Part shown: in pieces, positions 102 through 14,825 of the stretch
How positions within the stretch are numbered: position 1 is the first letter of the stretch
How the letters are laid out: each line of letters starts with the position of its first letter
Source of the DNA: a virus
Taxonomy: Duplodnaviria; Heunggongvirae; Uroviricota; Caudoviricetes
IMG/VR virus record: IMGVR_UViG_2681813004_000005
Coordinates: 1-19,033 of that record
Length of the DNA: 19,033 nt
Reading direction: 5' to 3' (one strand)
Program-made: the position numbers and the translations under genes
The notes under the pieces: generated by a model
Told to the model about the DNA's origin: nothing
What the model saw: only the letters and a program-made list of their open reading frames with translations
Databases searched by the model: none

Positions 102-132
102 GGCGTGTGGCACTCAGACGTGAGCCGCCACA

Positions 133-250: not shown

Positions 251-1396
251 ATGAAGAAATTAATCGAACTCCGCCAGCAAAAAACCGCCCTGAAAAACCA
301 GATGCGATCCCTGCTGGAAAAAGCCGACAGTGAAAACCGCAGCCTGAACGATGACGAAGGCAAACAGTTTGATGAACTGCGTGCAAAAGCCGATTCCCTC
401 GACACAGAAATCTCCCGTCTTGAAGCTGTTGCGGATGAAGAACGTAACCAGCCAGGTGTTTCCGTCGAAGAGAAAATCACCAAAGACGAACTACGCTCTT
501 ACATTCTGACCGGGGAAACCCGCAACCTGTCCGGCAGTGTCCCGGCTGATGGTGGTTATACGGTTATCCCGGAACTGAACAGAGAAGTTATGCGTCAGCT
601 TTCTGATGAATCGGTGATGCGTAAAATCTGTACTGTTAAAACCATTCACAGCAATGAATTTAAGCAACTGGTTTCTGCCGGGGGCGCGGTCGTTGAACAC
701 GGTGAAGAAGGTGCAGCACGTAACCAGACGGCAACACCAAAACTGAATGAAGTCAGTATCCGCCTGTATCCGATCTACGCTTACCCGAAAACCACTCAGG
801 AAATTATCGATTTTTCCGAAGTCGATATTATGGGCTGGTTATCTTCTGAAATTGGCGACACTTTCGTTGATACCGAAGAAACGGATCTGGTTTCCGGTGA
901 TGGCGAGAAAAAAGCTAAAGGTTTCCTGGCTTTTCCGCGCACTGCGGATAACGACAAAACCCGTCCTTTCGGTACGCTCCAGACGAAAAAAGTTACTGGC
1001 AGTCTCAGCGCCGACATGCTGATTGACCTGAAATTTACGCTGCGCAATAAGTACCGCAAAAAAGCTGTATGGGTGATGAACTCAAATACAGCCGCCTCCG
1101 CACAAAAACTGAAAAATGCCACTGGTGATTACATCTGGCGCGATCGTTTACAGGCTGGTGATCCTGATTCTCTGCTGGGGCTTCCGGTTGAATATCTGGA
1201 ATTTATGCCGGACGGTGTGATTGCAGTAGGTGACTTTAAGCGCGGTTATTTCATCGTTGACCATGAAACCGGTACGCGTACCCGTCCGGATTTCAGCGAA
1301 CCCGGATTCATTAACATCTATACCCAGAAATATCTGGGCGGTGGTGTGGTGGATTCGAACGCCATCAAGATTCTGGAAATTCAGGCTGGCAAGTAA
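251..1396 (+). CDS. Major capsid protein, HK97 fold, with N-terminal coiled-coil delta (scaffold) domain
   Basis: 381 aa ORF. N-terminal roughly 100 aa is charged and coiled-coil-like. C-terminal half aligns with the second capsid ORF at 10393-11598 (shared KGFLA, FKRGY.IVD, VDS.AIK.L motifs). Immediately followed by a terminator hairpin. Confidence 0.85.
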   Translation: MKKLIELRQQKTALKNQMRSLLEKADSENRSLNDDEGKQFDELRAKADSLDTEISRLEAVADEERNQPGVSVEEKITKDELRSYILTGETRNLSGSVPADGGYTVIPELNREVMRQLSDESVMRKICTVKTIHSNEFKQLVSAGGAVVEHGEEGAARNQTATPKLNEVSIRLYPIYAYPKTTQEIIDFSEVDIMGWLSSEIGDTFVDTEETDLVSGDGEKKAKGFLAFPRTADNDKTRPFGTLQTKKVTGSLSADMLIDLKFTLRNKYRKKAVWVMNSNTAASAQKLKNATGDYIWRDRLQAGDPDSLLGLPVEYLEFMPDGVIAVGDFKRGYFIVDHETGTRTRPDFSEPGFINIYTQKYLGGGVVDSNAIKILEIQAGK

Positions 1397-1401
1397 TGAG
1401 C

Positions 1402-1426: not shown

Positions 1427-1445
1427 AGCTTTATGGAGTACACCG

Positions 1446-2006
1446 ATGAAAAATACCGATTTTGAAATCCGTACATCTGAACTGACCGCCAGCGATAAAA
1501 AACTGGTGGGTTATGCCGTTCGCTGGAACAGCCTTTCAGAAATTATCTGGGACGAATTCCGCGAACAGTTCACGCCGGGGGCTTTTGCTGACTATCTGGC
1601 GGCGGGTAATGATGTGCGCTGCCTGTATGAGCATGACTATACCCGACTGCTGGGGCGCACCAAATCCGGAACACTGGTACTGACTGAGGACAACACCGGG
1701 CTACGTTTTGAACTGACACCGCCTGATACCCAGCTTGGAAAAGATGTGCTTACGCTGGTGGAGCGTGGCGATATTACAGGAATGAGCTTTGGCTTTCGCG
1801 CATTATGCGAAGAATGGAATATCGCGCAAAAACCGTATCTGCGTACTGTTACCGCTGCAGAACTCAGGGAAATCACGATCACGTCGATGCCTGCTTATCC
1901 CGAATCTGGCGTGGAGATTGCCCACCGTTCGTTGTTTGCACAGCACCCTGAATTACGCCCGGCAGGAAATAATCGTCATCGCTGGGCTGAACTGGCGGGG
2001 TTGTGA
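1446..2006 (+). CDS. Prohead maturation protease, HK97 family
   Basis: First ATG of the 1230-2006 frame that has an RBS (GGAG about 10 nt upstream). Aligns with the protease ORF at 9728-10378. Position next to capsid and portal genes. Confidence 0.75.
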   Translation: MKNTDFEIRTSELTASDKKLVGYAVRWNSLSEIIWDEFREQFTPGAFADYLAAGNDVRCLYEHDYTRLLGRTKSGTLVLTEDNTGLRFELTPPDTQLGKDVLTLVERGDITGMSFGFRALCEEWNIAQKPYLRTVTAAELREITITSMPAYPESGVEIAHRSLFAQHPELRPAGNNRHRWAELAGL

Positions 2007-2007
2007 T

Positions 2008-3231
2008 ATGTGGTGGCCTTTTAGTCGTAAAAAAAGCGATCTGCGTAACCTGTCCATTGATGATTTTCTGGCGCTGTCCGGCGTACCGAATACCGGATCC
2101 GGAGAATATGTTTCTGCCGGGACGGCTGAATCATTGCCTGCTGTGATGAACGCGGTTTCTGTCATCGCTGAGGCGGTGGCCACGATGCCGTGTTATCTGT
2201 ATCTGGTACGTAATGACAAGGGCAGGGAGGCGCGGGAATGGCTGGACAGTCATCCGGTAGATATTCTGCTGAATGAGCAGCCTAATTCATGCCAGACACC
2301 TTACCAGTTTAAACGCACAATGATGCGTCACTGCCTGCTGAACGGTAACGCCTATGCGGTTATTGAGTGGGGGCAGGACGGGCAGCCAAAATCACTTCAT
2401 CCTTATGCGCCGGGGTGTGTTGTACCGGAACGCACAGGCGCACACAAATACCGATATACCATCACCGAACCCTATACAGGAACGGTGCGCACGTATTTAC
2501 AGGAAGAAGTTCTGCATCTCCGCTATGCCTCGGATGATGGCTTTCTGGGGCGTTCCCCCGTCACGATTTGCCGTGAGGCGCTGGGGCTTGGCCTTGCTCA
2601 ACAGCGTCACGGAGCCAGCATTATGAAAGATGGCATGATGGCGGCAGGGATTATCACGTCAGGCGAATGGCTGGACGGCGTGAAAGGTAAACAGGCATTA
2701 GACGCCCTGGAACGCTACAAGGGGGCGAAAAATGCCGGAAAAACGCCAATCCTTGAAGGGGGCATGGATTACAAGCAACTGGGGATGAGTAACCAGGATG
2801 CGGAATGGCTGGCCTCCCGTCGCTTCTCCATTGAAGACATCGCCCGGATGTTCAACGTGTCGCCTATTTTTCTGCAGGAATACAGCAACAGCACCTACAG
2901 CAATTTCAGTGAGGCAAGCCGCGCGTTTCTGACCATGACAATGCGTCCTTGGTTGGCGAACTTCGAACAGCAAATCAAGGCCGCTTTGCTGGTGGCTTCT
3001 CCCGTGCCTGGAACCCGTTATCTGGTTGAGTTTGATTCAGCCGATTTATTACGCGCCACCCCTACCGAACGTTACGCCACGTATGAGAAAGGGATTAAGA
3101 ACGGGATCATCAATCCGAACGAAGCCCGTGAGCGTGAGGGAATGCCGCCGCGTGAAGGTGGTGACGAGTTCAGCCAGGCATGGAAGCAGGAAGTGACAAT
3201 CAGCAAGAACAGTAAGGGCGGTGACGAATGA
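2008..3231 (+). CDS. Portal protein, HK97 family
   Basis: ATG at 2008, 2 nt after the protease stop. The track ORF from 1789 is an upstream artefact in the same frame. N-terminus MWWPFSRKKSD parallels MFFSGLFQRKSD of the second portal; shared C-terminal motifs (SIEDIARMFNV vs QLEEICRLFRV; NPNEAREREGMPPREGGDEF vs SPNDCRDLEDMNPRPGGDVY). Confidence 0.85.
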   Translation: MWWPFSRKKSDLRNLSIDDFLALSGVPNTGSGEYVSAGTAESLPAVMNAVSVIAEAVATMPCYLYLVRNDKGREAREWLDSHPVDILLNEQPNSCQTPYQFKRTMMRHCLLNGNAYAVIEWGQDGQPKSLHPYAPGCVVPERTGAHKYRYTITEPYTGTVRTYLQEEVLHLRYASDDGFLGRSPVTICREALGLGLAQQRHGASIMKDGMMAAGIITSGEWLDGVKGKQALDALERYKGAKNAGKTPILEGGMDYKQLGMSNQDAEWLASRRFSIEDIARMFNVSPIFLQEYSNSTYSNFSEASRAFLTMTMRPWLANFEQQIKAALLVASPVPGTRYLVEFDSADLLRATPTERYATYEKGIKNGIINPNEAREREGMPPREGGDEFSQAWKQEVTISKNSKGGDE

Positions 3232-3566
3232 TAGCCGGAAAGATGCGGGACCGGGTGACGATTATGACATTTACCACACAGCGCCTGCCGTCAGGTGCGA
3301 TCCAGCAGATATGGACGGAAGGGGAAACCCTCTGGGCAGAGGTCAAGGGGATCAGCGGACGGGAATTACTGACCGCAGGCGCAGAAACCGCACCTGCAAC
3401 GATTCGGGTATGGGTTCGCTATCGTGGCGACATATCCGCCGCCAGTCGCCTGAAAGTGCTTACCGGCGCTTTTGCCGGGAGCACGCTTAATATCATCGGG
3501 ATCCCCTTACCTGATGCGAAAAGAACCCGGCTGGAAATTCTGGCAAAGGTGGGTACAGAAAAATGA
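3228..3566 (+). CDS. Head-tail adaptor / head closure protein
   Basis: 112 aa. ATG overlaps the portal stop (ATGA). About 66 of 112 residues identical in an ungapped hand alignment to the ORF at 12163-12501, including the block WAEVKGISGRE and LKVLTGAF. Confidence 0.8.
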   Translation: MIAGKMRDRVTIMTFTTQRLPSGAIQQIWTEGETLWAEVKGISGRELLTAGAETAPATIRVWVRYRGDISAASRLKVLTGAFAGSTLNIIGIPLPDAKRTRLEILAKVGTEK

Positions 3567-3859
3567 CAGCAGAAAAAATAACCCTGGAAGAGGCCAAACT
3601 TCACTGCCGCATAGATGGTAACACAGAAGACACACTGATTCAGGCATACATAAGCGCGGCGCTGGAGGTATGCCAGAAGCATATTGGCAGGCGTTTTGAT
3701 GACGGCCTGGAATTTACCCCTGCAATAAAAATTGGTTGCCTGATGTACATCTCGCAACTGTACGAGTACCGGACAACGCTTGGCGATACCGATACAAAAG
3801 AAATTCCCCTGACGATTTCTGCGCTCTGGTCGGTTTATCGTGATGTGGGGGTGTACTGA
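3563..3859 (+). CDS. Head-tail connector, gp6-like
   Basis: 98 aa. ATGA overlap with the upstream gene. N-terminal TLEEAKLHCRID matches TLEELRVQCRID of the ORF at 11849-12154; weaker similarity further on. Confidence 0.7.
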   Translation: MTAEKITLEEAKLHCRIDGNTEDTLIQAYISAALEVCQKHIGRRFDDGLEFTPAIKIGCLMYISQLYEYRTTLGDTDTKEIPLTISALWSVYRDVGVY

Positions 3860-4299
3860 TGCCGTGGCAACCATTAAGGCGATGCACTGAGCCGGGCTGT
3901 AATAAGCGCGTGAAGTCCGGCAAGTGTGAAGAGCACAGGCGGGCTGCATGGCGTGCAGAGGATGCCAGACGGGGACACCGCCGCGCGCGCGGGTATTCCC
4001 GACAGTGGGACAAATACCGCGCCCTGTACCTGAGCAAAAACCCGTTATGCGTGCGTTGTCTGGCTAAGGGGATTTATACGCCAGCTCTTGTGGTGGATCA
4101 CATCATTCCCATCAATGGCGGCGGTGATGTTCTCTTCTGGCCTGAGTGGAACCACCAGGCATTGTGCCAGACGTGCCACAACCGTAAGACGACACGGGAA
4201 GACCCAGCCACGAAAGCGAACCGTAAGGCGGGTATGTATCGCGAGCAGGAAGAACGGGCGGCACACCGTAACGACTGGATGTATGGCGATGATGACTGA
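3859..4299 (+). CDS. HNH endonuclease, phage packaging-associated (HK97 gp74-like)
   Basis: 146 aa with Cys-rich N-terminus and HNH motif (DHIIP ... N ... CHNRKT). Sits immediately upstream of terS, as in HK97-type cos phages. Start overlaps the previous stop (TGATG). Confidence 0.8.
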   Translation: MPWQPLRRCTEPGCNKRVKSGKCEEHRRAAWRAEDARRGHRRARGYSRQWDKYRALYLSKNPLCVRCLAKGIYTPALVVDHIIPINGGGDVLFWPEWNHQALCQTCHNRKTTREDPATKANRKAGMYREQEERAAHRNDWMYGDDD

Positions 4300-4468
4300 A
4301 CAGGAGCAAAACAGGCTGATACGTGGACTGATAAGGCAGCGTGACTTATGGAAGACACAGGAGACAGGGCACAAAGCCAACAGGACAGGGCGCACAGAAC
4401 GCACCACAGCGAAGCGATTAACCGACCGTGACCGCGAGGTCATGGAATGTTTTCGCAATCGCTGGTGA
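4283..4468 (+). CDS. Hypothetical small Arg-rich protein (about 60 aa)
   Basis: 3' portion of the 4088-4468 frame beginning at ATG 4283 (or 4289/4292), overlapping the HNH stop. No recognisable motif. The 5' part of that frame overlaps HNH and is discounted. Confidence 0.3.
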   Translation: MAMMTEQEQNRLIRGLIRQRDLWKTQETGHKANRTGRTERTTAKRLTDRDREVMECFRNRW

Positions 4469-4587
4469 GGCCGTCAGAGGGGGTGGGGGAGGTTTTCAGG
4501 ACAAAACCGTCCCTGCCGGACACCGACCGCCTCCTCAAATTTTTGTGCACGGAAATTTTTTTGAAAATAATTGGGCGAAAAAAGAAC

Positions 4588-4944
4588 ATGGCAAGACCAC
4601 CAAAAGCCCCCGCTTACCTGGATGAAATCGCGGTCAGGCAGTGGAAGGAAAAATCGCGCCAGCTTTCCGGGCGGGAAGACCTTACCCCCGCCGACTGGAG
4701 CAATCTGGAGCTGTATTGCGTTAACTACTCCATATACCGCAAAGCCGTCGAAGACCTTGCCACGCGCGGGTTCAGCATTGTTAACAGTCAGGGCAGCGAG
4801 AGCAGAAACCCCGCCCTGAGCGCAAAGGCTGACGCTGAAAGAATAATGATCAAAATGGCTTCTTTGCTGGGTTTTGACCCGGTAAGCCGCCGCAGAAATC
4901 CACCGGAAACAGAGGAAGAGGACGAGCTTGACCGCCTGGCATGA
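4588..4944 (+). CDS. terS: Terminase small subunit, P27 family
   Basis: Internal ATG at 4588 gives N-terminus MARPPKAPAYLDE, typical of P27-family TerS. Sits between HNH and terL. The track ORF from 4447 is an upstream extension. Confidence 0.75.
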   Translation: MARPPKAPAYLDEIAVRQWKEKSRQLSGREDLTPADWSNLELYCVNYSIYRKAVEDLATRGFSIVNSQGSESRNPALSAKADAERIMIKMASLLGFDPVSRRRNPPETEEEDELDRLA

Positions 4945-6607
4945 GTACGCAGAAGGCGTAAAAAACGGCAAAATTACGGCCTGTAAACGACTGAAACAGG
5001 CCGTTAAACGGTATTTTTCTGACCTTGAAAACCCCCTTTACACGTTCGATCCGGAGGTCGTGGAGCGGTTTATTGCCTTTTCCAGGGTGTGTCCGCACGT
5101 AAAAGGCGCAATGCGCGGTAGCCCCATTGAGCTGGAGCCGTGGCAGCAGTTCGCCTTTGCGTGCATCCTGGGCTTTAAGGTTAAGGCCACCGGACGGCGC
5201 AAATACACCAGCGCATTCATTGAAGTGCCGCGAAAAAATGCCAAATCCACGGTCGCCGCTATCCTGGCTAACTGGTTTCTGGTTATGGAAAACGGGCAGC
5301 AGGATATTTACACCGCCGCCGTGAGTCGTGATCAGGCGCGGATCGTGTTTGATGATGCGCGTCAGATGTGCCTTTTATCCCGACCGTTACGAAAGCGGGT
5401 AAATATTCAGGCACACAAGGTGATACACCCGAAAACCAACAGCCTGTTAAAGCCACTGGCAGCAAAAGCGGCAACCATTGAGGGGACAAACCCGAGTCTT
5501 GCCATTGTGGATGAATATCACCTGCACCCAGACAACGGGGTTTATTCCGCGCTTGAACTGGGAATGGGGGCGCGTCCGGAGGGGTTATTATTTGCCATCA
5601 CCACATCGGGGAGCAACGTTGTTTCAGCCTGTAAACAACACTACGACTATTGCTGCCAGATACTGGATGGTGAAGAGGTGAACGAATCCATGTTCGTGCT
5701 GATTTACGAGCTGGATGATGAAAGCGAGGTTGACGATCCGGCGATGTGGATAAAGGCGAATCCAAATATCGATGTTTCCGTCGATCGTGAAAAACTGGCC
5801 TCAACCATCCAGAAAGCGCGGGGTATTCCGTCGCAGTGGGTGGAGATGATGACAAAGCGCTTTAATATCTGGTGTCAGGGGGCTACGCCGTGGATGGGTA
5901 ACGGTGCATGGGCTGAGTGTGCCGGAACGTTCGCGGAGGCGGATTTATACGGGCAGGAGTGCTACGCGGGGCTGGACTTATCATCAACCAGCGATATTTT
6001 TTCAACAAATGATATTTCAAGCGTGTGTTATGCCTTTCCGGTTGGTAAAACCATCATGCTGGTTTCCCGTCATTATCTGCCGGAGCAGCAGCTACAGAAT
6101 CCCGCCAATAAAAACCGCGCCATCTATCGCCAGTGGGCAAAATCGGGCTGGATACGCACAACGCCAGGCGACTGTATTGATTACGACCGTATCAGGGATG
6201 ACATCATGAAGGACGCGGAAAATTTTAATATCCGGCTGGTGGGCTTCGATACATGGAACGCCACGCACCTGATGACGCAGCTACAGGGCGCAGGATTTGA
6301 GGTGGAGCCGTTCCCGCAAACATACCTTCGTTTCAGTCCGGCGGCGAAATCGTTCGAAGTTTTTGTTAACCGGAAGGTGATTGTGCATCGTGGCGATCCG
6401 GTGCTGGCCTGGTCAATGAGTAATGTTGTGATGCAGAGTGACGCGAACGCCAATATCAAGCCGAACAAGAAAAAATCATCCAACAAGATAGACCCGAGCG
6501 TTGCGGCTCTGATGGCGTTTGGCACATTCCAGGCAGAGCATGAGGAATTTGCATTTGATATGAGCGACAGCCACAAAGAGCGACTTGCGGCGTTTGATGG
6601 GGTATGA
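4928..6607 (+). CDS. terL: Terminase large subunit (ATPase plus nuclease)
   Basis: 559 aa. The only in-frame start after the upstream stop is TTG at 4928, with a GAGGAAGAGG purine tract before it; overlaps the terS end. C-terminal half aligns with the terL remnant at 7572-8315. Confidence 0.85.
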   Translation: MTAWHEYAEGVKNGKITACKRLKQAVKRYFSDLENPLYTFDPEVVERFIAFSRVCPHVKGAMRGSPIELEPWQQFAFACILGFKVKATGRRKYTSAFIEVPRKNAKSTVAAILANWFLVMENGQQDIYTAAVSRDQARIVFDDARQMCLLSRPLRKRVNIQAHKVIHPKTNSLLKPLAAKAATIEGTNPSLAIVDEYHLHPDNGVYSALELGMGARPEGLLFAITTSGSNVVSACKQHYDYCCQILDGEEVNESMFVLIYELDDESEVDDPAMWIKANPNIDVSVDREKLASTIQKARGIPSQWVEMMTKRFNIWCQGATPWMGNGAWAECAGTFAEADLYGQECYAGLDLSSTSDIFSTNDISSVCYAFPVGKTIMLVSRHYLPEQQLQNPANKNRAIYRQWAKSGWIRTTPGDCIDYDRIRDDIMKDAENFNIRLVGFDTWNATHLMTQLQGAGFEVEPFPQTYLRFSPAAKSFEVFVNRKVIVHRGDPVLAWSMSNVVMQSDANANIKPNKKKSSNKIDPSVAALMAFGTFQAEHEEFAFDMSDSHKERLAAFDGV

Positions 6608-7571: not shown

Positions 7572-8315
7572 AATATTCTTACCAAACACATGAATGTGTG
7601 GGTCACTGCCGAGTCTGCCTGGATGGACATGATTAAGTGGGAGAAATGCGAATACATTGCCCCACGACATGAGCTGAAAACGTATCCCATGTGGGTCGGC
7701 GTTGACCTTGCTCATAAGATTGATATCTGTGCGGCGGCAAAACTCTGGCGAACGGATAACGGGCATGTTCATGCCGATTTTAAATTCTGGCTCCCGGAAG
7801 GACGGCTGGAACGATGCTCGCGGCAGCAGGCAGAACTTTACCGGAAGTGGGCGGAGATGGATAAGCTGATTCTGACGGATGGTGATGTTATCGATCATGC
7901 TCAGATAAAAAGTGACTTACTGGAATGGATTGGTGGTGAAAACCTCAGGGAACTGGGATTTGACCCGTGGAGCGCGATGCAGTTCAGCCTGGCACTGGCT
8001 GAAGAAGGGATACCGCTGGTGGAGGTTCCGCAGACGGTTCGCAATCTGTCAGAGGCCATGAAGGAAACGGAATCACTGGTCTATGCCGGACGTTTCCATC
8101 ACAGCAATCATCCGGTCATGAACTGGATGATGTCTAACGTTACGGTAAAACCGGACAAAAACGACAATATCTTCCCGAATAAATCCACGCCGGAAGCCAA
8201 AATCGACGGCCCTGTTGCGATGTTTACAGCGATGAGCCGGATGCTGGTCAATGGTGGTGAACCGGAGCCGGATCTGTCTGAACATCTGGTCAGCGTGGGC
8301 ATCCGCTCGCTTTAA
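7572..8315 (+). pseudogene. terL: 5'-truncated terminase large subunit (C-terminal nuclease-domain remnant only)
   Basis: Frame is open only from 7572 (TGA at 7569-7571). The 241 aa from ATG 7590 align with the C-terminal part of the unit-1 TerL (LYRKWAEMDKLILTDGDVIDH vs IYRQWAKSGWIRTTPGDCIDY; HPVMNWMMSNV vs DPVLAWSMSNV). ATPase domain and upstream terS are absent; AT-rich non-coding DNA lies upstream. Confidence 0.8.
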
Positions 8316-8326: not shown

Positions 8327-8509
8327 ATGTTTCTGATAATTCTCGCGCCACTGGTGGGCGTGCTGGGTGCGCTTTTGCTGGCGTATGGTGCCTGGCTGAT
8401 TTATCCCCCGGCGGGTTTTGTTGTTGCCGGGGTGCTGTGCCTGTTCTGGTCGTGGCTGGTGGCGCGATATCTCGACCGTACACAGCCGTCTGTCGGCGGA
8501 GGTAAATAG
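8327..8509 (+). CDS. Small hydrophobic protein, two predicted transmembrane helices
   Basis: 60 aa, GAGG RBS 6 nt upstream; two hydrophobic segments ([23 protein letters not shown] and [16 protein letters not shown]). Confidence 0.5.
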
Positions 8510-9750
8510 TGTTCTTTTCGGGATTATTTCAACGAAAAAGTGACGCGCCGGTGACCACGCCAGCAGAGCTGGCGGATGCCATCGGGTTGTCTTACGACAC
8601 CTATACCGGAAAGCAGATCAGCAGTCAGCGAGCCATGCGACTGACGGCGGTTTTTTCCTGCGTCAGAGTGCTGGCAGAGTCGGTCGGGATGTTGCCCTGC
8701 AATCTGTATCACCTGAACGGCAGCCTGAAACAGAGGGCCACCGGCGAACGTCTGCATAAGCTGATCTCCACGCATCCCAATGGCTATATGACGCCGCAGG
8801 AGTTCTGGGAGCTGGTGGTCACCTGTCTGTGCCTGAAGGGAAACTTTTACGCCTACAAAGTGAAAGCATTTGGCGAAGTGGCTGAACTGCTGCCCGTCGA
8901 TCCCGGTTGTGTGGTACCGAAGCTTAACAGTCGCTGGGAGCCGGTCTATCAGGTCACATTCCCGGACGGTTCCACGGATGTACTGAGCCAGGAAGATATC
9001 TGGCATGTGCGCACGCTGACGCTGGACGGTCTGGTGGGACTGAATCCCGTCGCCTATGCCCGCGAGGCAATATCGCTGGCAGCAGCGACCGAAGAGCACG
9101 GGGCCAGACTGTTCAGCAATGGTGCGGTGACGTCCGGTGTGTTGCGTACAGAACAGACGCTGTCGGATCAGGCTTATGAGCGCCTGAAGAAAGATTTTGA
9201 GGAGCGTCACACCGGGCTTGGCAATGCTCACCGCCCGATGATCCTTGAGATGGGGCTGGACTGGAAGTCGATGGCGCTGAACGCTGAGGACAGCCAGTTC
9301 CTGGAAACCCGCAAGTTTCAGCTTGAAGAAATCTGTCGTCTGTTCCGGGTGCCGTTGCACATGGTGCAGAACACCGATCGCGCCACCTTCAACAATATCG
9401 AAGAGCTGGGGCTGGGATTTATCAACTATTCACTGGTGCCGTATCTGACCCGCATCGAACAGCGGATCAACACCGGACTGGTACGAAAAAGTAAGCAGGG
9501 CGTTTATTACGCCAAATTTAACGCCGGGGCGTTACTGCGCGGGGATATGAAGTCCCGTTTTGAAGCCTACGCCACCGGGATCAACTGGGGAATTTACTCT
9601 CCCAATGACTGCCGCGACCTGGAAGATATGAATCCGCGTCCCGGTGGGGATGTCTATCTCACACCGATGAACATGACCACGAAACCCTCCGATGGCAGTA
9701 AAGCCGGTAAGCAGAAGGATAACGCCAATGCAGACGAAACAACGTCTTGA
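8509..9750 (+). CDS. Portal protein, HK97 family (prophage)
   Basis: 413 aa. GTG start at 8509 overlapping the upstream stop, GGAGG RBS. Homologous to the unit-1 portal. Confidence 0.85.
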   Translation: MFFSGLFQRKSDAPVTTPAELADAIGLSYDTYTGKQISSQRAMRLTAVFSCVRVLAESVGMLPCNLYHLNGSLKQRATGERLHKLISTHPNGYMTPQEFWELVVTCLCLKGNFYAYKVKAFGEVAELLPVDPGCVVPKLNSRWEPVYQVTFPDGSTDVLSQEDIWHVRTLTLDGLVGLNPVAYAREAISLAAATEEHGARLFSNGAVTSGVLRTEQTLSDQAYERLKKDFEERHTGLGNAHRPMILEMGLDWKSMALNAEDSQFLETRKFQLEEICRLFRVPLHMVQNTDRATFNNIEELGLGFINYSLVPYLTRIEQRINTGLVRKSKQGVYYAKFNAGALLRGDMKSRFEAYATGINWGIYSPNDCRDLEDMNPRPGGDVYLTPMNMTTKPSDGSKAGKQKDNANADETTS

Positions 9751-10378
9751 TGTACCGCTGAGTCTGAAATCTGTCAGTGACTCAGGTGAGTTTGAAGGGT
9801 ATGGCTCCGTCTTTGGTGTAAAGGACAGTCACGATGATGTGGTGATGTCCGGGGCATTTGCTGCTTCCCTGCGGGCGTGGAGTGACAGAAAAGCGTTACC
9901 TGCGCTGCTCTGGCAGCACCGCATGGATGAACCCATCGGTGTTTACACCGAAATGAAGGAAGACGATGTCGGGCTTTACGTCAGGGGACGGTTGCTTATT
10001 GATGATGATCCCCTCGCAAAACGCGCACATGCACACATGAAGGCCGGTTCGTTAACCGGCCTTTCTATTGGGTACGTCCTGAAAGACTGGGAATACGACC
10101 GGAGCAAAGAAGCCTTTCTGCTGAAAGAAATCGACCTCTGGGAAGTCAGCCTGGTGACGTTCCCGTCTAACGACGAGGCGCGGATCAGCGACGTCAAGAA
10201 CGCACTGGCCCGCGGGGAAATCCCCGAACAGAAAAAAATTGAAAGAGTCCTGCGTGATGTCGGACTCTCCCGTACCCAGGCCAAAGCATTCATGGCCGGG
10301 GGCTATGGCGCACTGTCCCTGCGCGACGCTGAGGATGTGGGCTCTGCACTGAATGCACTGAAAAATCTGAACTTCTAA
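9728..10378 (+). CDS. Prohead maturation protease, HK97 family (prophage)
   Basis: ATG at 9728 with AAGGA RBS; overlaps the portal 3' end. The track ORF from 9692 is an upstream extension. Position between portal and capsid. Confidence 0.75.
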   Translation: MQTKQRLDVPLSLKSVSDSGEFEGYGSVFGVKDSHDDVVMSGAFAASLRAWSDRKALPALLWQHRMDEPIGVYTEMKEDDVGLYVRGRLLIDDDPLAKRAHAHMKAGSLTGLSIGYVLKDWEYDRSKEAFLLKEIDLWEVSLVTFPSNDEARISDVKNALARGEIPEQKKIERVLRDVGLSRTQAKAFMAGGYGALSLRDAEDVGSALNALKNLNF

Positions 10379-10392
10379 TCAGGAGAAATACG

Positions 10393-11598
10393 ATGGCGGT
10401 TGATATTAAAGATGTCGAACAGGTCGCGCAGGAGCTGCAGCAGAAGTTTGACGACTTCAAAGCAAAGAACGACAAGCGCGTGGATGCGATTGAGCAGGAA
10501 AAAGGCAAACTTGCCGGGCAGGTGGAAACCCTGAACGGGAAACTCAGCGAGCTGGAAAACCTCAAAAGCGATCTTGAAAAAGAGCTGCTTGAGCTGAAAC
10601 GTCCGGCAGGTGGTGCGCAGAATAAACTGGCCACCGAGCATAAAGAAGCGTTTGTGGGCTTCCTGCGTAAAGGCCGTGAAGATGGTCTGCGCGATCTGGA
10701 GCGTAAGGCATTACAGGTGGGCACCGATGAAGACGGTGGCTATGCCGTGCCGGAAGCGCTGGATCGCAACATTCTTAACCTGCTGAAAGATGAAGTGGTG
10801 ATGCGCCAGGAAGCCACGGTGATCACCGTTGGCGGTTCCGACTACAAAAAACTGGTGAATCTGGGCGGTACGGCTTCCGGATGGGTTGGCGAGACTGACG
10901 CGCGCTCCCAGACTGCCACTTCCAGACTGGGGCTGATTGAACCTTTCATGGGGGAAATCTACGGTAACCCGCAGGCCACCCAGAAAATGCTGGATGATGC
11001 CTTTTTCAACGTGGAGGCCTGGATCAACAGCGAGCTGGCAACCGAATTTGCCGAACAGGAAGAAATTGCCTTTACCACCGGCGATGGTACCAAGAAGCCG
11101 AAAGGGTTCCTGGCGTATGAATCCACTGATGAAACCGACAAGGTCCGGGCGTTCGGCAAACTTCAGCATATTGTATCCGGCGAAGCGACGACGGTGACTG
11201 CAGATGCTATTATCAAACTGATTTACACGCTGCGTAAGGCACACCGCACCGGCGCGAAGTTCATGATGAACAACAACAGCCTGTTTGCCATTCGTCTGCT
11301 GAAAGACACCGAGGGTAACTATCTGTGGCGTCCGGGGCTGGAGCTGGGGCAGCCGTCCTCTCTGGCGGGTTACGGTATCGCTGAAAACGAACAGATGCCG
11401 GATATTGCCGCTGATGCGAAAGCCATTGCATTTGGTAACTTCAAACGGGGTTACACCATCGTTGACCGTATCGGTACCCGCATTCTGCGTGACCCGTACA
11501 CCAATAAACCGTTTGTCGGTTTTTATACCACCAAGCGCACCGGCGGCATGCTGGTCGATTCGCAGGCCATCAAACTGCTGAAGATTGCAGCGGCGTAA
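10393..11598 (+). CDS. Major capsid protein, HK97 fold with delta domain (prophage)
   Basis: 401 aa. AGGAG RBS. Coiled-coil N-terminus, C-terminal motifs shared with the unit-1 capsid protein. Followed by a hairpin. Confidence 0.9.
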   Translation: MAVDIKDVEQVAQELQQKFDDFKAKNDKRVDAIEQEKGKLAGQVETLNGKLSELENLKSDLEKELLELKRPAGGAQNKLATEHKEAFVGFLRKGREDGLRDLERKALQVGTDEDGGYAVPEALDRNILNLLKDEVVMRQEATVITVGGSDYKKLVNLGGTASGWVGETDARSQTATSRLGLIEPFMGEIYGNPQATQKMLDDAFFNVEAWINSELATEFAEQEEIAFTTGDGTKKPKGFLAYESTDETDKVRAFGKLQHIVSGEATTVTADAIIKLIYTLRKAHRTGAKFMMNNNSLFAIRLLKDTEGNYLWRPGLELGQPSSLAGYGIAENEQMPDIAADAKAIAFGNFKRGYTIVDRIGTRILRDPYTNKPFVGFYTTKRTGGMLVDSQAIKLLKIAAA

Positions 11599-11848: not shown

Positions 11849-12154
11849 ATGATGCCCACTCTGGAAGAGCTTCGTGTTCAGTGCCGGATTGATGATGACA
11901 ATGAACAGGAGAATTCTCTTCTTATGATGTATCTGGCTGCTGCCAGGGAAGAGGCTGAAAAGTTTTTAAACCGGACGCTTTACGATGAAACTGTTTCTGA
12001 GCAGGATACGACCGGGCTTGTAATAACACCTCTGATAAAGCTGCGTCTTATGCAACTGGTTGGCTACTGGTACGAGAACAGGGAAATGCAGGATGCAGTG
12101 CCTGATTTTTTCTATACCGGACTGCGGATGTATCGGTTTCATCCCGGAACATAG
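11849..12154 (+). CDS. Head-tail connector, gp6-like (prophage)
   Basis: AGAGG RBS 8 nt upstream. N-terminal TLEELRVQCRID motif shared with the unit-1 connector. Confidence 0.7.
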   Translation: MMPTLEELRVQCRIDDDNEQENSLLMMYLAAAREEAEKFLNRTLYDETVSEQDTTGLVITPLIKLRLMQLVGYWYENREMQDAVPDFFYTGLRMYRFHPGT

Positions 12155-12162: not shown

Positions 12163-12501
12163 ATGCAGGCAGGAAGATTACGTGATCGTGTGGTTATTCT
12201 GAATGCCACCACCGTTCGGTCTCCATCAGGGCACCCTGTGGAAACAATGACGGAGGGGGCAACCATATGGGCAGAAGTTAAGGGGATCAGTGGCAGGGAG
12301 AGAATATCCGGAGGCGCAGAAACTGCTCAGGCTACAGTGAGGGTCTGGATGAGATTCCGGCGAGATGTGACAGCAACTTCATGTCTGAAAGTGCTGACTG
12401 GTGCATTCAAAGGCGCGATTCTGAGTATAGACGGTCCGCCGATACCGGATGCCCGTGCCACCCGGCTTGAGATACTCTGTTCTCAGAAGGGGAATGTGTG
12501 A
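12163..12501 (+). CDS. Head-tail adaptor / head closure protein (prophage)
   Basis: 112 aa, strong RBS (AGGAGG). About 59% identical by hand count to the unit-1 adaptor at 3228-3566. Confidence 0.8.
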   Translation: MQAGRLRDRVVILNATTVRSPSGHPVETMTEGATIWAEVKGISGRERISGGAETAQATVRVWMRFRRDVTATSCLKVLTGAFKGAILSIDGPPIPDARATRLEILCSQKGNV

Positions 12502-12947
12502 TGGATTTCAGTCTTGATTTTTCAGGTCTGGCGGATATTGCACGGGATCTGGAGACGCTCAGCAGGGCAGAAAATAATAAGGTACTGCGCGATGCCACCC
12601 GTGCCGGTGCTGAAGTTATGCGGGATGCTGTTGTTGAACGTGCGCCGGAGCGAACCGGAAAACTGAAAAAAAATGTGGTTGTTCTCACTCAGCGTTCAAA
12701 GCGTCGGGGGGAAATTATCTCGGGTGTCCACATTCGCGGACGGAACCTGCGAACCGGAAACAGTGATAACAGCATGAAAGCCAGTGATCCCCGAAATGCG
12801 TTTTACTGGCGCTTTGTGGAGCTGGGAACGATAAACATGCCCGCGCATCCGTTCATTCGCCCGGCTTTCGATACGACAGAGGAACTGGCAGCACAGATTG
12901 CCATACAGCGAATGAATCAGGCTATTGATGAGGTCTTAAGTAAATGA
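12498..12947 (+). CDS. HK97 gp10-family neck / tail-attachment protein
   Basis: Conserved HPFIRPA motif typical of the gp10 family. GTG at 12498 or ATG at 12501, overlapping the upstream stop. Confidence 0.65.
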   Translation: MMDFSLDFSGLADIARDLETLSRAENNKVLRDATRAGAEVMRDAVVERAPERTGKLKKNVVVLTQRSKRRGEIISGVHIRGRNLRTGNSDNSMKASDPRNAFYWRFVELGTINMPAHPFIRPAFDTTEELAAQIAIQRMNQAIDEVLSK

Positions 12948-13288
12948 GAGAGGCCACACTGTATTCCCTGCTGTCTCAACTGGCCGGAGGACAGGTTTAT
13001 CCTTATGTGGTCCTGCTGACGGAGGGAAAGCCTGCGGTATCTCCGCCGTGGCTGGTGTTTTCTGTGGTGTCTGACACGGCATCTGATGTGCTTGATGGTC
13101 AGGCTGAATCCAGAATTACCGTGCAGATCGATGTCTGGGCGACAGTACCTGATGACGCAGATGATATCCGTGAGCAGGCGCTTGATGCGGTAAGGCAACT
13201 GGCACCCTCCGTTATTTCTAAAACGCAGGGTTATGATCCTGATTCCCGTCTGAGCAGAGCCACGCTTGAATTTCAGGTAATAGCCTGA
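12944..13288 (+). CDS. Tail completion / tail-terminator-like protein (DUF3168-like)
   Basis: 114 aa. ATGA overlap with the upstream gene. Call rests mainly on position between the neck and major tail genes. Confidence 0.5.
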   Translation: MREATLYSLLSQLAGGQVYPYVVLLTEGKPAVSPPWLVFSVVSDTASDVLDGQAESRITVQIDVWATVPDDADDIREQALDAVRQLAPSVISKTQGYDPDSRLSRATLEFQVIA

Positions 13289-13393: not shown

Positions 13394-14098
13394 ATGTCCT
13401 CTAATTTTGAACGTTCTCAGCAGACCAAAGTCATGATCTCGTCTGCACCGGTAACGGCAGAAACGCTGAGTTCTGCCAGTTTTCTTGAACTGAGCTGTAC
13501 GATTAAAGAGGTTCAGTTTACCGCCGGGCAGAAACAGGATATTGATGTCACCACGCTGTGTTCTGTTGAGCAGGAAAATATTAACGGTCTTGGCGCCGCG
13601 TCAGAGATTTCCATGTCAGGCAACTTTTATCTGAATGCTGCCCAGAACGCGTTGCGCAGTGCCTATGACAATGACACCACGTATGGCTTTAAAGTTATTT
13701 TTCCGTCAGGCAACGGATTTACCTTTATGGCAGAGGTGCGTCAGCATACCTGGTCTGCAGGAACCAATGGAGTTGTGGCTGCAACGTTTTCCCTGCGCCT
13801 GAAAGGTAAACCTGTACTGACGACAGAGCCACTGAAAGTGAAGGTCGATTTAAACAGCACGCTGCAGGTTTCTGCCGGAGCGAAACTCGAAATGGTGGTT
13901 GAGGCTGCCGGTGGTGTGCCGCCTTATTCTTATGTCTGGAAGAAAGGTGGTTCTCCTGTTTCCGGACAGACGGCGGCAACGTTCAGTAAGGCATCCGCAG
14001 TATCCGGTGATGCCGGTGCGTATACCTGCGAGATTTCTGATTCAGCAAGCCCGGTTAGCAAGGTGACCTCCACTTCCTGCACTGTTACCGTCAGTTAA
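13394..14098 (+). CDS. Major tail (tube) protein with C-terminal Ig-like domain
   Basis: 234 aa. AGGAG RBS. C-terminal roughly 90 aa looks like an Ig-like domain (GVPPYSYVWKKGG ... GAYTCEISD), as in lambda V-type tail tube proteins. Position before the G/GT chaperone. Confidence 0.75.
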   Translation: MSSNFERSQQTKVMISSAPVTAETLSSASFLELSCTIKEVQFTAGQKQDIDVTTLCSVEQENINGLGAASEISMSGNFYLNAAQNALRSAYDNDTTYGFKVIFPSGNGFTFMAEVRQHTWSAGTNGVVAATFSLRLKGKPVLTTEPLKVKVDLNSTLQVSAGAKLEMVVEAAGGVPPYSYVWKKGGSPVSGQTAATFSKASAVSGDAGAYTCEISDSASPVSKVTSTSCTVTVS

Positions 14099-14112
14099 TG
14101 AGGATAGATGTG

Positions 14113-14484
14113 ATGACTAAAAATATCCGTAATCTGGCACTGGCAACGATGTCGGGGTTTCGCCATAAAACCGTTGATGTGCCTGAATGGGAAGGGGCAA
14201 CGGTTGTATTACGGGAACCTTCTGCAGAAGCCTGGTTGCGCTGGCAGGAGATCGTTAAAGCAAAAGATGATGAGACACCGTTATCCGTTGCGGAGCGCGC
14301 CCGCCGAAATCTGGAGGCAGATGTTGAACTGTTCATTGATGTTCTGTGTGATACCGGACTGCAACCTGTATTTTCAGAGGATGATCGTGAACAGGTGATT
14401 GCCGTGTATGGCCCGGTGCATGCGCGGCTTCTTCGGCAGTCTCTGGAACTGATCAGTGATGCCGGCGAGGTTAAAAAAAAGTAG
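14113..14484 (+). CDS. Tail assembly chaperone (lambda G-like)
   Basis: ATG 14113 with GAGGA RBS (alternative ATG 14098 overlaps the upstream stop). Ends just after an A_AAA_AAG slippery heptamer. Position between the major tail and tape measure genes. Confidence 0.7.
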   Translation: MTKNIRNLALATMSGFRHKTVDVPEWEGATVVLREPSAEAWLRWQEIVKAKDDETPLSVAERARRNLEADVELFIDVLCDTGLQPVFSEDDREQVIAVYGPVHARLLRQSLELISDAGEVKKK

Positions 14485-14786
14485 CGCTTCCGGGGATGCG
14501 TTTTCTGATGATGCTGGCGCTCAGGATGGGGCGCACATTGTCAGAGTTACGCCGGGAAATGTCCGCATCAGAAATCATGATGTGGGCAGAATTTGACAGG
14601 TTCAGCCCGCTGGGTGATGAGCGGGCTGATATCCGGGCTGCCCAGATAGTTTCTGCGGTTTACGGTGCGCAGGGTGTCAAAGTACCACTGAATGATGCGC
14701 TTCTTCAGTGGGAACAAGAGCAGACAGAAGGCGCCTCAGATCCATTTGCCGGACTGGAAAACGCGCTTTTAATAGTGTCTCAGTGA
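14113..14786 (+). CDS. Tail assembly chaperone frameshift fusion (lambda GT-like), made by -1 programmed frameshift at 14475-14481
   Basis: The -1 frame is closed by TAA at 14472-14474, open from 14475 and continues to the stop at 14784-14786. A slip on A_AAA_AAG joins the two frames as ...GEVKKK-VALPGMRFLMM... Confidence 0.6.
14475..14481 (+). other. Slippery heptamer A_AAA_AAG for -1 programmed ribosomal frameshift
   Basis: Read directly; lies within an A8 run, immediately before the TAG stop of the G-like ORF. Confidence 0.65.
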
Positions 14787-14794
14787 GTCAACAT

Positions 14795-14816
14795 AACCGC
14801 TTCGGCGGTTTTTTTC
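14795..14816 (+). terminator. Short hairpin plus T tract between the GT chaperone and tape measure genes (possible attenuator)
   Basis: AACCGC / TTCG tetraloop / GCGGTT followed by TTTTT. Confidence 0.4.
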
Positions 14817-14825
14817 GTCCGGAGA

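What the first reader, a model, noticed from the sequence alone, without database searches (positions are those of the whole stretch)
3228..3566. Unit-1 head-tail adaptor is far closer to the prophage adaptor than any other paired protein
The adaptor at 3228-3566 and the prophage adaptor at 12163-12501 are both 112 aa and align without gaps at about 66 of 112 identical positions (about 59%). By the same by-eye method the capsid, portal, protease and connector pairs are roughly 25-40% identical. The adaptor is the head component that docks the finished tail, so selective conservation of this protein is what one expects if unit-1 capsids must accept tails made by this prophage or its relatives.
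Basis: partly seen in the sequence, partly recalled or inferred. Interest (0 to 1): 0.8.

Follow-up and report, generated by a model that had tools for sequence, protein, structure and literature searches.

The report
Satellite head-closure protein matches helper's tail class
A capsid-making phage satellite sitting inside an E. coli prophage carries one head protein, the piece that docks the tail, that is twice as similar to the prophage's version as any other shared protein, which fits the published idea that such satellites build their own heads and borrow tails.

Summary
The 112-aa proteins at 3228-3566 and 12163-12501 align without gaps at 66/112 positions (59%). The capsid, portal, protease, gp6-connector and TerL pairs are 24-41% identical. 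Both are PF05521 head-closure (Hc1, HK97 gp7 / SPP1 gp16 type) proteins.

Unit 1 is the packaging module of a capsid-forming PICI inserted into the terL gene of a lambdoid prophage with an HK97-type neck and tail. The similarity is not a recent recombination patch: nucleotide identity is 59% and synonymous sites are saturated. Nor is it specific to this prophage. HK97 gp7 is also 59% identical and Klebsiella prophage Hc1s are 68%.

In 108 non-redundant phage loci, Hc1 identity tracks the gp10, tail-completion and major-tail genes (rho 0.75-0.81). It does not track gp6, portal or capsid (rho 0.03-0.16).

Among satellites with 84-88% identical portals, Hc1 ranges from 40 to 99%. Near-identical satellites in the same helper lack the gene entirely.

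So Hc1 is a swappable, tail-class-matching cassette. The principle is already published for cf-PICIs (He et al. 2025) and helper-embedded PICIs (Mageeney et al. 2023). This is a clean new example, of moderate interest.

The parts
3228..3566 (+). Satellite (unit 1) head-closure protein Hc1, called 'head-tail adaptor' in the cf-PICI literature; 112 aa, PF05521
   Evidence: Pfam 68.4 bits. 59% identical to the prophage copy. 59% to HK97 gp7 and 33% to HK022 gp9. PDB 2KZ4 matches at E = 2.5e-35. ATGA start/stop overlaps with portal and gp6.
3563..3859 (+). Satellite gp6-like head-tail connector (Ad1), PF05135, allele A
   Evidence: Pfam. Only 27-41% identical to the prophage gp6. No true-phage homologue above 36%. 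58-60% identical to allele B of the adaptor-less satellites.
3190..3800 (+). Exchangeable Hc1 + Ad1 cassette (approximate limits)
   Evidence: The window is 96-100% nt identical to the adaptor-less L001 everywhere else in 1-6600 but 0-64% here. The same stretch is 98-100% identical to L022 and L247.
251..1396 (+). Satellite major capsid protein (HK97 fold family)
   Evidence: 99% identical to RefSeq 'phage major capsid protein' in L001/L002. 37-39% to the prophage capsid. A different capsid allele (62-70% nt) occurs in otherwise identical satellites.
1446..2006 (+). Satellite HK97-family prohead protease
   Evidence: 99-100% identical to annotated proteins in L001/L002.
2008..3231 (+). Satellite portal protein
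   Evidence: 99% identical to annotated portal proteins. 33% to the prophage portal.
3859..4299 (+). Satellite HNH endonuclease
   Evidence: Pfam PF01844.
4447..4944 (+). Satellite small terminase (P27 family); the annotated start in relatives is about 4588
   Evidence: Pfam PF05119; RefSeq annotation of relatives.
4928..6607 (+). Satellite large terminase
   Evidence: 97-98% identical to annotated TerL of relatives. Carries an in-frame 6-aa insertion relative to L001.
7579..7585 (+). attR core (TTACCAA), the right end of the satellite inside prophage terL
   Evidence: The intact TerL of L006 reads ...VNFFTKHMNIW. attL in L002 ends ...TTTACCAAG and attR reads CTTACCAAACACATGAATGTG.
7590..8315 (+). 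C-terminal fragment (nuclease domain) of the prophage large terminase, split by the satellite
   Evidence: Pfam TerL_nuclease, profile positions 64-283 only. RefSeq marks it 'missing N-terminus' in relatives, and the N-terminal fragment lies upstream of the satellite integrase. The split is at about aa 345 of 589.
8509..11598 (+). Prophage portal (8509-9750), protease (9692-10378) and major capsid (10393-11598)
11849..12154 (+). Prophage gp6-like connector (Ad1)
   Evidence: Pfam PF05135.
12163..12501 (+). Prophage head-closure protein Hc1 (PF05521)
   Evidence: Pfam 75.5 bits. 60% identical to HK97 gp7. Its stop overlaps the gp10 start.
12498..13288 (+). Prophage neck proteins on the tail side: HK97-gp10-like (Ne1, 12498-12947) and tail-completion gp17-like (Tc1, 12944-13288)
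   Evidence: Pfam. 79% and 50-53% identical to the HK97/HK106 counterparts, 28% and 14% to those of HK022.
13394..18071 (+). Prophage tail genes: major tail protein (13394-14098), chaperones (14098-14786), tape measure (14826-18071)
   Evidence: The major tail protein is 71% identical to that of HK97/HK106 and 10% to that of HK022.

Best explanation
The gene at 3228-3566 encodes the head-closure (Hc1, stopper) protein of a capsid-forming phage satellite (cf-PICI). The satellite is embedded in the terL gene of a lambdoid prophage. By homology with SPP1 gp16 and HK97 gp7, Hc1 assembles under the portal-bound gp6-type adaptor after DNA packaging. It plugs the channel and presents the surface onto which a pre-assembled tail docks through its tail-completion and neck proteins.

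The satellite's Hc1 belongs to the HK97-gp7 sequence class. In phages this class is always genetically linked to HK97-gp10-like, gp11/gp17-like and HK97-type major tail genes. The resident prophage has exactly that neck and tail class. The 59% identity therefore reflects shared membership of one tail-compatibility class, kept by purifying selection on the tail-docking interface. Meanwhile the satellite's capsid, protease, portal, gp6 and terminase have diverged so that they do not mix with helper components.

Hc1 behaves as a movable cassette. It travels with tail genes in phages and is swapped, gained or lost between otherwise near-identical satellites.

Shown here: the identities, the linkage pattern, the cassette mosaicism, and the embedding. 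Inferred: that satellite heads dock this prophage's tails through this protein, and that adaptor-less relatives use the helper's Hc1.
For: Outlier identity: (63% versus 26-41% of aligned residues).

Family: PF05521; 2KZ4.

cf-PICI architecture and embedding in terL: int, AlpA-type HTH, Bro, DUF927 primase, SSB, then capsid-protease-portal-Hc1-connector-HNH-TerS-TerL between the two terL fragments; att core.

Class assignment. The unit-1 Hc1 is 59%/56% identical to HK97/HK106 gp7 and 33% to HK022 gp9. The prophage gp10, Tc and MTP are 79/50/71% identical to HK97 and 28/14/10% to HK022.

Hc1 travels with the tail. Over 108 non-redundant phage loci, Spearman rho of Hc1 identity is 0.81 with gp10, 0.76 with gp17 and 0.75 with MTP, against 0.16 with gp6, 0.13 with portal and 0.03 with capsid. 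Phages with portals 26-37% or 81-82% identical to the prophage all have Hc1 at 60-71%. Seven loci with 81-85% portals have 33-38% Hc1 together with 25-28% gp10.

HK97 versus HK022: heads and gp6 are 98-100% identical but Hc1 is 23%, with a 78-aa gp7 remnant left in HK022.

Not an intrinsically slow protein: (Hc1 40-99% among satellites with 84-88% portals).

Only Hc1 has close phage relatives: (44 phage records at 60-68%) against (gp6 at most 36% in true phages).

Purifying selection: (dN/dS 0.07-0.14).

Cassette exchange.

Experimental precedent: cf-PICI adaptor plus connector determine tail specificity, and near-identical cf-PICIs carry different versions (10.1101/2025.02.11.637232). Helper-embedded PICIs in late genes, including terminase, are described in PMC10111431.
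Against: No experiment or structure here shows that this Hc1 contacts this prophage's tail.

The unit-1 Hc1 is no closer to the resident prophage than to HK97. It is closer to Klebsiella prophages (68%), so identity gives no partner-specific signal.

Near-identical satellites in the same helper lack Hc1 altogether, so the gene is not indispensable.

He et al. report one cf-PICI that uses both HK022 and HK106 tails. The Hc1s of those two phages are only 28% identical to each other, so sequence class may not map one-to-one onto compatibility.

The NJ tree of Hc1 is unresolved. dS is saturated for all between-group pairs. Retention from an ancestor and capture from a phage therefore cannot be told apart for this particular allele.

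The phage loci were collected through Hc1 similarity and are phylogenetically related, so the p-values attached to the correlations should not be taken literally.
Confidence: 0.7

Rival explanations
1. Generic slow evolution. PF05521 proteins are simply more constrained than capsid, portal or protease, so any two HK97-like head modules of this age would show about 60% identity, and tails have nothing to do with it.
For: dS is saturated in all pairs and only dN is lower for the adaptor (0.35 against 0.55-0.92). This is formally what stronger purifying selection gives. The family shows dN/dS of 0.07-0.14.
Against: Among cf-PICIs with 84-88% identical portals, Hc1 is the least conserved gene at 40-73%. 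HK97 and HK022 share 98-100% identical portal, capsid and gp6 but only 23% Hc1. Seven phage loci with 81-85% portals have 33-38% Hc1.
Confidence: 0.07
2. Recent recombination patch. The satellite copied the adaptor from this prophage, or the reverse, by homologous or illegitimate recombination made easy by physical embedding.
For: The two genes lie 9 kb apart in the same orientation in one composite element. The Hc1-gp6 region is a recombination hot spot among satellites. Mageeney et al. propose capture of late genes from helpers.
Against: Nucleotide identity is only 59%, and the best blastn match is 78 nt at 78%. Third-position identity is 35% and pS is 0.75, meaning saturated. No similarity extends into the flanks, and gene order differs: portal-Hc1-gp6 in the satellite against gp6-Hc1-gp10 in the prophage. 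Other phages are closer, at 68%.
Confidence: 0.03
3. Redundant passenger. The satellite's Hc1 is dispensable because the helper's Hc1 closes satellite heads. The satellite copy is a neutral or transient acquisition whose similarity only reflects its phage origin.
For: Adaptor-less satellites are 8-fold more common in E. coli (143 against 17 genomes). They sit in the same terL site of near-identical helpers and also at chromosomal gcd/hpt and fis sites.
Against: The ORF is intact and translationally coupled on both sides. It is 96-99% conserved across independent contigs, and the family is under strong purifying selection. It always comes with a distinct gp6 allele, A against B at 58% identity, which suggests a co-adapted pair. 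He et al. show that deleting adaptor plus connector abolishes tail joining in another cf-PICI and that replacing them changes tail choice.
Confidence: 0.2

Closest known systems
cf-PICI head-tail adaptor and connector as determinants of tail specificity (He et al. 2025, bioRxiv 10.1101/2025.02.11.637232; cf-PICIs first described by Alqurainy et al. 2022/2023, 10.1101/2022.09.08.507074)
   Same: [quoted passage not shown] Same idea that these two small proteins decide which phage tails the satellite head can take. Same observation that near-identical cf-PICIs carry different adaptor/connector genes.
   Different: Those papers stress low identity (<40%) between cf-PICI and phage packaging proteins. 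In the text I could search, they do not compare the adaptor with helper-phage Hc1. Here the adaptor is the single exception, at 56-68% to HK97-class phage Hc1. This satellite is embedded in the helper's terL, and a common sister form lacks the adaptor. I could not retrieve the EcCIEDL933, EcCIGN02175 or KpCIDSM30104 sequences to place them in the same classes.
Helper-embedded PICIs (HE-PICIs), Mageeney et al. 2023, PMC10111431
   Same: [quoted passage not shown] The target gene is split until excision. Terminase (gene A) is among the reported target sites. The window shows the terL C-terminal fragment and attR; relatives show int and the N-terminal fragment.
   Different: The prototype 11capE is a classical Gram-negative PICI in the capsid gene E of a lambda-like phage. 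Here the embedded element has a full cf-PICI packaging module, and the helper has an HK97-type head, neck and tail. I did not test whether its integrase falls in the clade they describe.
HK97 gp7 / SPP1 gp16 head-closure (Hc1, stopper) proteins; Virfam type-1 neck (Ad1-Hc1-Ne1-Tc1); PDB 2KZ4
   Same: Same Pfam family (PF05521) and same length (112 aa). 59% identical to HK97 gp7. The solved homologue 2KZ4 matches at E = 2.5e-35.
   Different: The gene sits in a satellite without the Ne1 and Tc1 partner genes that always follow it in phages. It lies upstream rather than downstream of the Ad1 gene.
HK97/HK022 mosaic joint at gene 7 (classic lambdoid mosaicism; my recollection of Juhala et al. 2000, re-derived here from the sequences)
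   Same: It shows that the boundary between interchangeable head and tail modules runs at Hc1, and that Hc1 goes with the tail. HK022 keeps a 78-aa gp7 remnant and then a different complete Hc1 with different gp10, Tc and MTP.
   Different: That is an exchange between phages. Here the same boundary separates what a satellite encodes from what it takes from its helper.

Membership tests
Pfam PF05521 Phage_HCP (head completion / head-closure Hc1) | Score above the curated gathering threshold over the whole domain | tested here: met
   68.4 bits (3228-3566) and 75.5 bits (12163-12501) against a cutoff of 25; profile positions 1-105 of 106.
HK97-gp7 class of Hc1 (operational class defined here) | At least about 55% identity to HK97 gp7 and its relatives, and clearly lower identity to the HK022 gp9 class | tested here: met
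   The unit-1 Hc1 is 59% identical to HK97 gp7, 56% to HK106 gp7 and 68% to a Klebsiella prophage Hc1, against 33% to HK022 gp9.
HK97-gp7 class of Hc1 (operational class defined here) | The gene is immediately followed by HK97-gp10-like and tail-completion genes | tested here: not met
   Met for the prophage copy (12498-13288) and for all phage loci of this class. Not met for the satellite copy, which is followed by gp6, HNH and terminase. This is the expected difference for a tail-less satellite.
Capsid-forming PICI (cf-PICI) | [quoted passage not shown] | tested here: met
   Window 251-6607; the criteria are quoted from He et al..
Capsid-forming PICI (cf-PICI) | Size 10-18 kb with integrase, AlpA-type regulator and replication module | tested here: inconclusive
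   The left part lies outside the window. In L247 (APEC17), which has the same Hc1 cassette at 99.6% and the same context, the element is about 15.4 kb. It carries int, two HTH regulators, Bro-N, a DUF927 primase and SSB.
Capsid-forming PICI (cf-PICI) | No lysis genes and no tail module inside the element | tested here: met
   None lie between the capsid gene and attR in the window, and none in the full elements of L001, L002 and L247.
Capsid-forming PICI (cf-PICI) | Makes its own small capsids and needs only helper tails for transfer | not testable with these tools
   Requires induction, electron microscopy and transfer assays.
Helper-embedded PICI (HE-PICI) | Integrated within, and co-oriented with, a late gene of a prophage, with the two gene fragments and a short att identity block at the ends | tested here: met
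   The terL C-fragment is at 7590-8315. The TTACCAA core is at 7579-7585. The N-fragment lies upstream of int in L001, L002 and L247. The element occurs in prophages at two different chromosomal loci.
Helper-embedded PICI (HE-PICI) | Integrase belongs to the clade that targets prophage late genes | not tested
   The integrase is outside the window, and I made no comparison with the published clade.
Virfam type-1 neck (resident prophage) | Ad1, Hc1, Ne1 and Tc1 genes in a row between the capsid and major tail genes | tested here: met
   PF05135, PF05521, PF04883 and PF11367 at 11849-13288.

The most novel reading that the evidence does not exclude
Hc1 marks a movable frontier between what a capsid-forming satellite encodes and what it steals. 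Two forms that are 96-100% identical everywhere else sit in the same terL site of the same helper type. One carries its own HK97-class Hc1 with gp6 allele A. The other, which is more common, carries no Hc1 and has gp6 allele B. It would then have to close its heads with the helper's Hc1, so it steals 'tail plus head-closure protein' rather than tails only. If so, Hc1 class, or its absence together with the gp6 allele, would predict the range of tail donors for any cf-PICI from sequence alone. Carrying one's own Hc1 would be the step that frees a satellite from one helper and lets tail-less capsids be completed by foreign tails.
Probability: 0.3. Interest if true: 0.6.

Novelty: new member of a known kind. 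Interest (0 to 1): 0.4.

Why it matters
cf-PICIs move DNA between species by joining their own capsids to whatever compatible tails are available. Knowing which tails a given island can use is the key to predicting its host range.

This locus shows, from sequence alone, that the tail-docking protein is the one satellite head protein that stays within a phage sequence class. That class co-segregates with tail genes across more than 100 phage loci. This gives a simple, testable rule for assigning satellites to tail donors.

The locus also offers a natural pair of near-isogenic satellites, with and without the protein, in the same helper. That pair is a ready-made experimental system. The underlying principle is already published, so the value is as a clear case and a practical predictor, not as a new mechanism.

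Tried and rejected
(1) Recombination patch. I looked for nucleotide-level identity between the two adaptor genes and their flanks. There is only a 78-nt stretch at 78%, and dS is saturated. Rejected.

(2) Dating the transfer with dS. Every between-group Hc1 pair (satellite A, satellite B, Klebsiella prophage, HK97, resident prophage) has dS of 1.6 or more, or saturated. No timing is possible.

(3) Hc1 phylogeny. NJ with 200 bootstraps does not resolve whether satellite Hc1s are monophyletic (A+B 62%, phage monophyly 10%). A first bootstrap run timed out. No ML software was available.

(4) Linking to the experimentally characterised islands.
- I could not locate EcCIEDL933. There are no accession numbers in the preprints.
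- The gcd/hpt site of EDL933 is empty.
- The 1.6-kb record from an ATCC 43895 lysate is not from EDL933.
- The type-C cassette of L016 has no E. coli match.
- The type-B cassette is in strain GN02050 and others, but identity with EcCIGN02175 is unproven.

(5) Looking for satellites with an HK022-class Hc1. The 80 best IMG/VR matches to HK022 gp9 were all phages at 88% or more, so the search never reached satellite contexts.

(6) Testing whether gp6 allele B of the adaptor-less satellites resembles a phage Ad1 that pairs with HK97-class Hc1. It does not; true-phage hits are at most 34%.

(7) Structure prediction of Hc1 with gp10/gp17 was not attempted, because the tool folds single chains only.
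Full report
**What is in the window**

All relevant genes are on the + strand.

Unit 1 runs as follows:
- major capsid, 251-1396
- prohead protease, 1446-2006
- portal, 2008-3231
- a 112-aa PF05521 protein, 3228-3566
- a PF05135 gp6-like connector, 3563-3859
- HNH endonuclease, 3859-4299
- P27-family small terminase, to 4944
- large terminase, 4928-6607

After a non-coding or accessory stretch comes only the C-terminal nuclease-domain fragment of a second large terminase (7590-8315). A complete HK97-like morphogenesis block follows:
- portal, 8509-9750
- protease, 9692-10378
- capsid, 10393-11598
- gp6-like connector, 11849-12154
- PF05521 protein, 12163-12501
- HK97-gp10-like, 12498-12947
- gp17-like tail completion, 12944-13288
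- major tail, chaperones, tape measure and minor tail proteins

Pfam supports these calls.

**Checking the observation**

The two PF05521 proteins share 66 of 112 positions with no gap. That is 59%, or 62.9% over the 105 residues of the local alignment.

The other pairs, as a percentage of aligned residues, are capsid 39%, portal 33%, protease 27%, gp6 41% and TerL 31%. As a percentage of the shorter protein they are 16-37%. The adaptor pair is 4-5 standard deviations above the rest.

**What unit 1 is**

The window is E. coli DNA; 24 of 5426 complete genomes carry the same arrangement at 93-97% identity.

In annotated relatives unit 1 is the right half of a roughly 15-kb element. That element starts with a tyrosine integrase, then AlpA-type HTH regulators, Bro-N, an Icd-like gene, a DUF927 primase and SSB. 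It has no tail or lysis genes. This is the architecture of a capsid-forming PICI (criteria quoted).

The element lies between the N-terminal and C-terminal fragments of the terL gene of a lambdoid prophage. It does so in prophages at two different chromosomal positions: near ompN/uspF and near zinT/yodB. Comparison with an intact TerL puts the split at about residue 345 of 589. A TTACCAA core lies at window 7579-7585.

Satellites embedded in a late gene of their helper, including terminase, have been described as helper-embedded PICIs (PMC10111431). So the 'prophage' of the finding is very probably the helper of unit 1.

**Is it a recombination patch?**

No. Nucleotide identity of the two adaptor genes is 59%. 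Third-codon-position identity is 35%, the same as for the other pairs (31-41%), and synonymous sites are saturated (pS 0.75). Only dN is lower, at 0.35 against 0.55-0.92.

blastn finds just 78 nt at 78%. Nothing extends into the flanks, which are not even the same genes: the satellite order is portal-Hc1-gp6, the phage order is gp6-Hc1-gp10.

**Is it specific to this prophage?**

No. The satellite protein is 59% identical to HK97 gp7, 56% to HK106 gp7, 62-63% to several E. coli phages and up to 68% to Klebsiella prophages. The resident prophage's Hc1 is itself only 60-71% identical to other phage Hc1s of this type. The satellite protein is simply a regular member of what I call the HK97-gp7 class.

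**Is PF05521 just a slow-evolving family?**

No, and this is the key control. I collected 17 loci from species-representative genomes and more than 200 from IMG/VR. I scored every neighbouring gene against both units.

- Phages: in 108 non-redundant phage loci, identity of Hc1 to the prophage Hc1 correlates with identity of gp10 (rho 0.81), tail completion (0.76) and major tail protein (0.75). It does not correlate with gp6 (0.16), portal (0.13) or capsid (0.03).
- Phages whose portal is 81-82%, 30-37% or 26-28% identical to the prophage portal all have Hc1 at 60-71% and gp10 at about 75%.
- Seven phages with an 81-85% identical portal have an HK022-type Hc1 (33-38%) and gp10 (25-28%).
- The textbook pair shows the same thing. 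HK97 and HK022 have 98-100% identical portal, capsid and gp6. HK022 then carries a 78-aa remnant of gp7 followed by a different complete Hc1 (23% identical) with different gp10, terminator and major tail proteins.

Hc1 is therefore inherited with the tail, and the mosaic joint lies between gp6 and Hc1. The caveat is that the loci were ascertained through Hc1 and are related, so the p-values are only indicative.

**Inside the satellite family**

Satellites whose portals are 84-88% identical to unit 1 carry Hc1s that are 96-99%, about 71%, 48-50%, 43% or 40% identical to it. Hc1 is thus the most variable gene of the packaging module, as He et al. reported for three islands.

Hc1 is also the only satellite packaging protein with close phage relatives. 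There are 44 phage records at 60-68% for Hc1. Both gp6 alleles reach at most 36% in true phages. This is an exception to the '<40%' generalisation in the first cf-PICI paper.

Group averages for Hc1 are: satellite A to satellite B 70%, A to phage 64%, B to phage 69%, and phage to phage 79% with a minimum of 58%. The satellite proteins sit inside the phage diversity of this class. The NJ tree does not resolve the order of branching. dS is saturated for all between-group pairs. Retention and ancient capture therefore cannot be separated for this allele. The family is under strong purifying selection, with dN/dS of 0.07-0.14.

**Cassette behaviour in near-identical satellites**

A 200-nt sliding comparison gives a clear mosaic.
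- The window's satellite is 96-100% identical to L001 (strain rl0044) along 1-6600 except at about 3190-3800. There L001 has no Hc1 gene at all and has a different gp6 allele (58% amino-acid identity).
- The window's satellite is 96-100% identical to L022 and L247 (APEC17), including Hc1 and gp6, except in the body of the capsid gene (62-70%).

So Hc1+gp6 and the capsid allele have each been exchanged recently between satellites that share the same helper type and insertion site.

The adaptor-less junction is found in 143 E. coli genomes, including satellites at the chromosomal gcd/hpt and fis sites. The window's Hc1 cassette is found in only 17 genomes.

**How it most likely works**

By homology with SPP1 gp16 and HK97 gp7 (established knowledge of type-1 siphophage necks), Hc1 binds beneath the gp6-type adaptor on the filled head. 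It closes the channel and forms the docking face for the tail-completion protein at the top of a finished tail.

The satellite encodes the head-side pair (gp6, Hc1) but none of the tail-side proteins (gp10-like, gp17-like, tail tube). The prophage encodes those, and they are of the HK97 class: gp10 79%, terminator 50-53% and major tail 71% identical to HK97/HK106, against 28%, 14% and 10% to HK022.

I infer that satellite heads are completed with tails of this class, including those of the resident helper, and probably not with HK022-type tails. The small translational couplings fit the modular picture. Portal/Hc1 and Hc1/gp6 overlap by ATGA in the satellite. In the prophage, Hc1 overlaps gp10 and gp10 overlaps gp17, while an 8-nt gap separates gp6 from Hc1.

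The identities, linkage and mosaicism are shown. The physical docking is inferred, with published experimental support from other cf-PICIs.

- Sequence gives class-level evidence, not partner-level evidence.
- The gene is not indispensable in this lineage.
- He et al. describe one island that uses both HK106 and HK022 tails, whose Hc1s are only 28% identical. Class and compatibility may therefore not map one-to-one.

I could not obtain the sequences of the three experimentally studied islands to test the rule directly.

**Novelty and verdict**

The elements of the story are published:
- cf-PICIs that steal only tails
- adaptor and connector as specificity determinants that are swapped between islands
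- PICIs embedded in helper late genes

What this locus adds is threefold. It shows quantitatively that the satellite's Hc1 is the one packaging protein that stays within a phage Hc1 class. It shows that this class co-segregates with tail genes. And it provides a natural near-isogenic pair of embedded satellites with and without Hc1.

I rate it a new member of a known kind, of moderate interest. The adaptor-less sister form is the most promising lead.

Noticed in passing
window 6889-8315 (attR core 7579-7585); L001, L002, L247: Unit 1 is a roughly 15-kb integrase-bearing satellite inserted in the prophage's large-terminase gene. It splits TerL at about residue 345, between the ATPase and nuclease domains, and is co-oriented with the late operon. 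The same insertion occurs in prophages at two chromosomal loci. The helper cannot package DNA until the satellite excises. This matches published helper-embedded PICIs, here with a full cf-PICI packaging module.
   Followed up: partly
L001 17190-17310 and L002 15198-15497, against window 3190-3655: Satellites 96-100% identical elsewhere have no Hc1 gene: the portal gene is followed directly by a different gp6 allele (58% aa identity). This adaptor-less junction is in 143 of 5426 complete E. coli genomes, including sites at gcd/hpt and fis, against 17 genomes for the window's cassette. How these heads are closed and joined to tails is unexplained; use of the helper's Hc1 is my guess.
   Followed up: partly
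window 400-1400: The body of the satellite capsid gene is only 62-70% nt identical to that of L022 and L247, although the flanks are 96-100% identical. It is 92-100% identical to L001. The capsid allele has therefore also been swapped recently between near-identical satellites.
   Followed up: partly
window 3228-3859 against 11849-12501: Gene order is inverted. All proteobacterial cf-PICI loci examined have portal-Hc1-gp6, whereas phages have capsid-gp6-Hc1-gp10. This argues against the satellite's gp6 and Hc1 having been inherited together as a phage gp6-Hc1 block.
   Followed up: no
window about 6000-6020, within TerL 4928-6607: The satellite TerL has an in-frame 6-residue insertion that looks like a small tandem duplication: DLSSTSDIFSTNDISSV against DLSSTSDISSV in L001. 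It lies just after the GLDLS motif of the nuclease domain. The effect on activity is unknown.
   Followed up: no
window 6604-7578: The region between the satellite TerL and attR is variable among relatives (28-44% nt identity to L001 and L247, 85% then 44% to L022). It contains a 94-aa ORF (6604-6888) with no Pfam match that is present in L002 but absent in L001. He et al. note that variable regions flanking the packaging operon are expected to hold defence genes.
   Followed up: no
L101 (HK022) 5545-6309: HK022 carries a 78-aa remnant of an HK97-type gp7 (79% identical to the HK97 gp7 N-terminus) followed by gp8 and a complete, unrelated-class Hc1 (gp9). This is a visible scar of head/tail module exchange exactly at the Hc1 gene.
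   Followed up: yes
L021 (IMG/VR contig, 11.3 kb) 4782-11311: Two overlapping matches to the window's packaging module (248-3189 at 74% and 1110-4537 at 83%) suggest two partial satellite packaging modules in tandem. The second carries an Hc1-gp6 cassette 99-100% identical to the window's, beside a portal only 85% identical.
   Followed up: no
H195, H196 (E. coli SCU-308, MB07152) against L005 9992-10620: The type-B satellite Hc1 gene shows nucleotide-level similarity (74-77% over 255 nt) to E. coli prophage Hc1 genes that sit next to HK97-gp10 genes. The same type-B cassette is 99.7-99.8% identical between an Enterobacter hormaechei genome and several E. coli genomes, consistent with identical cf-PICIs crossing genera.
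   Followed up: no
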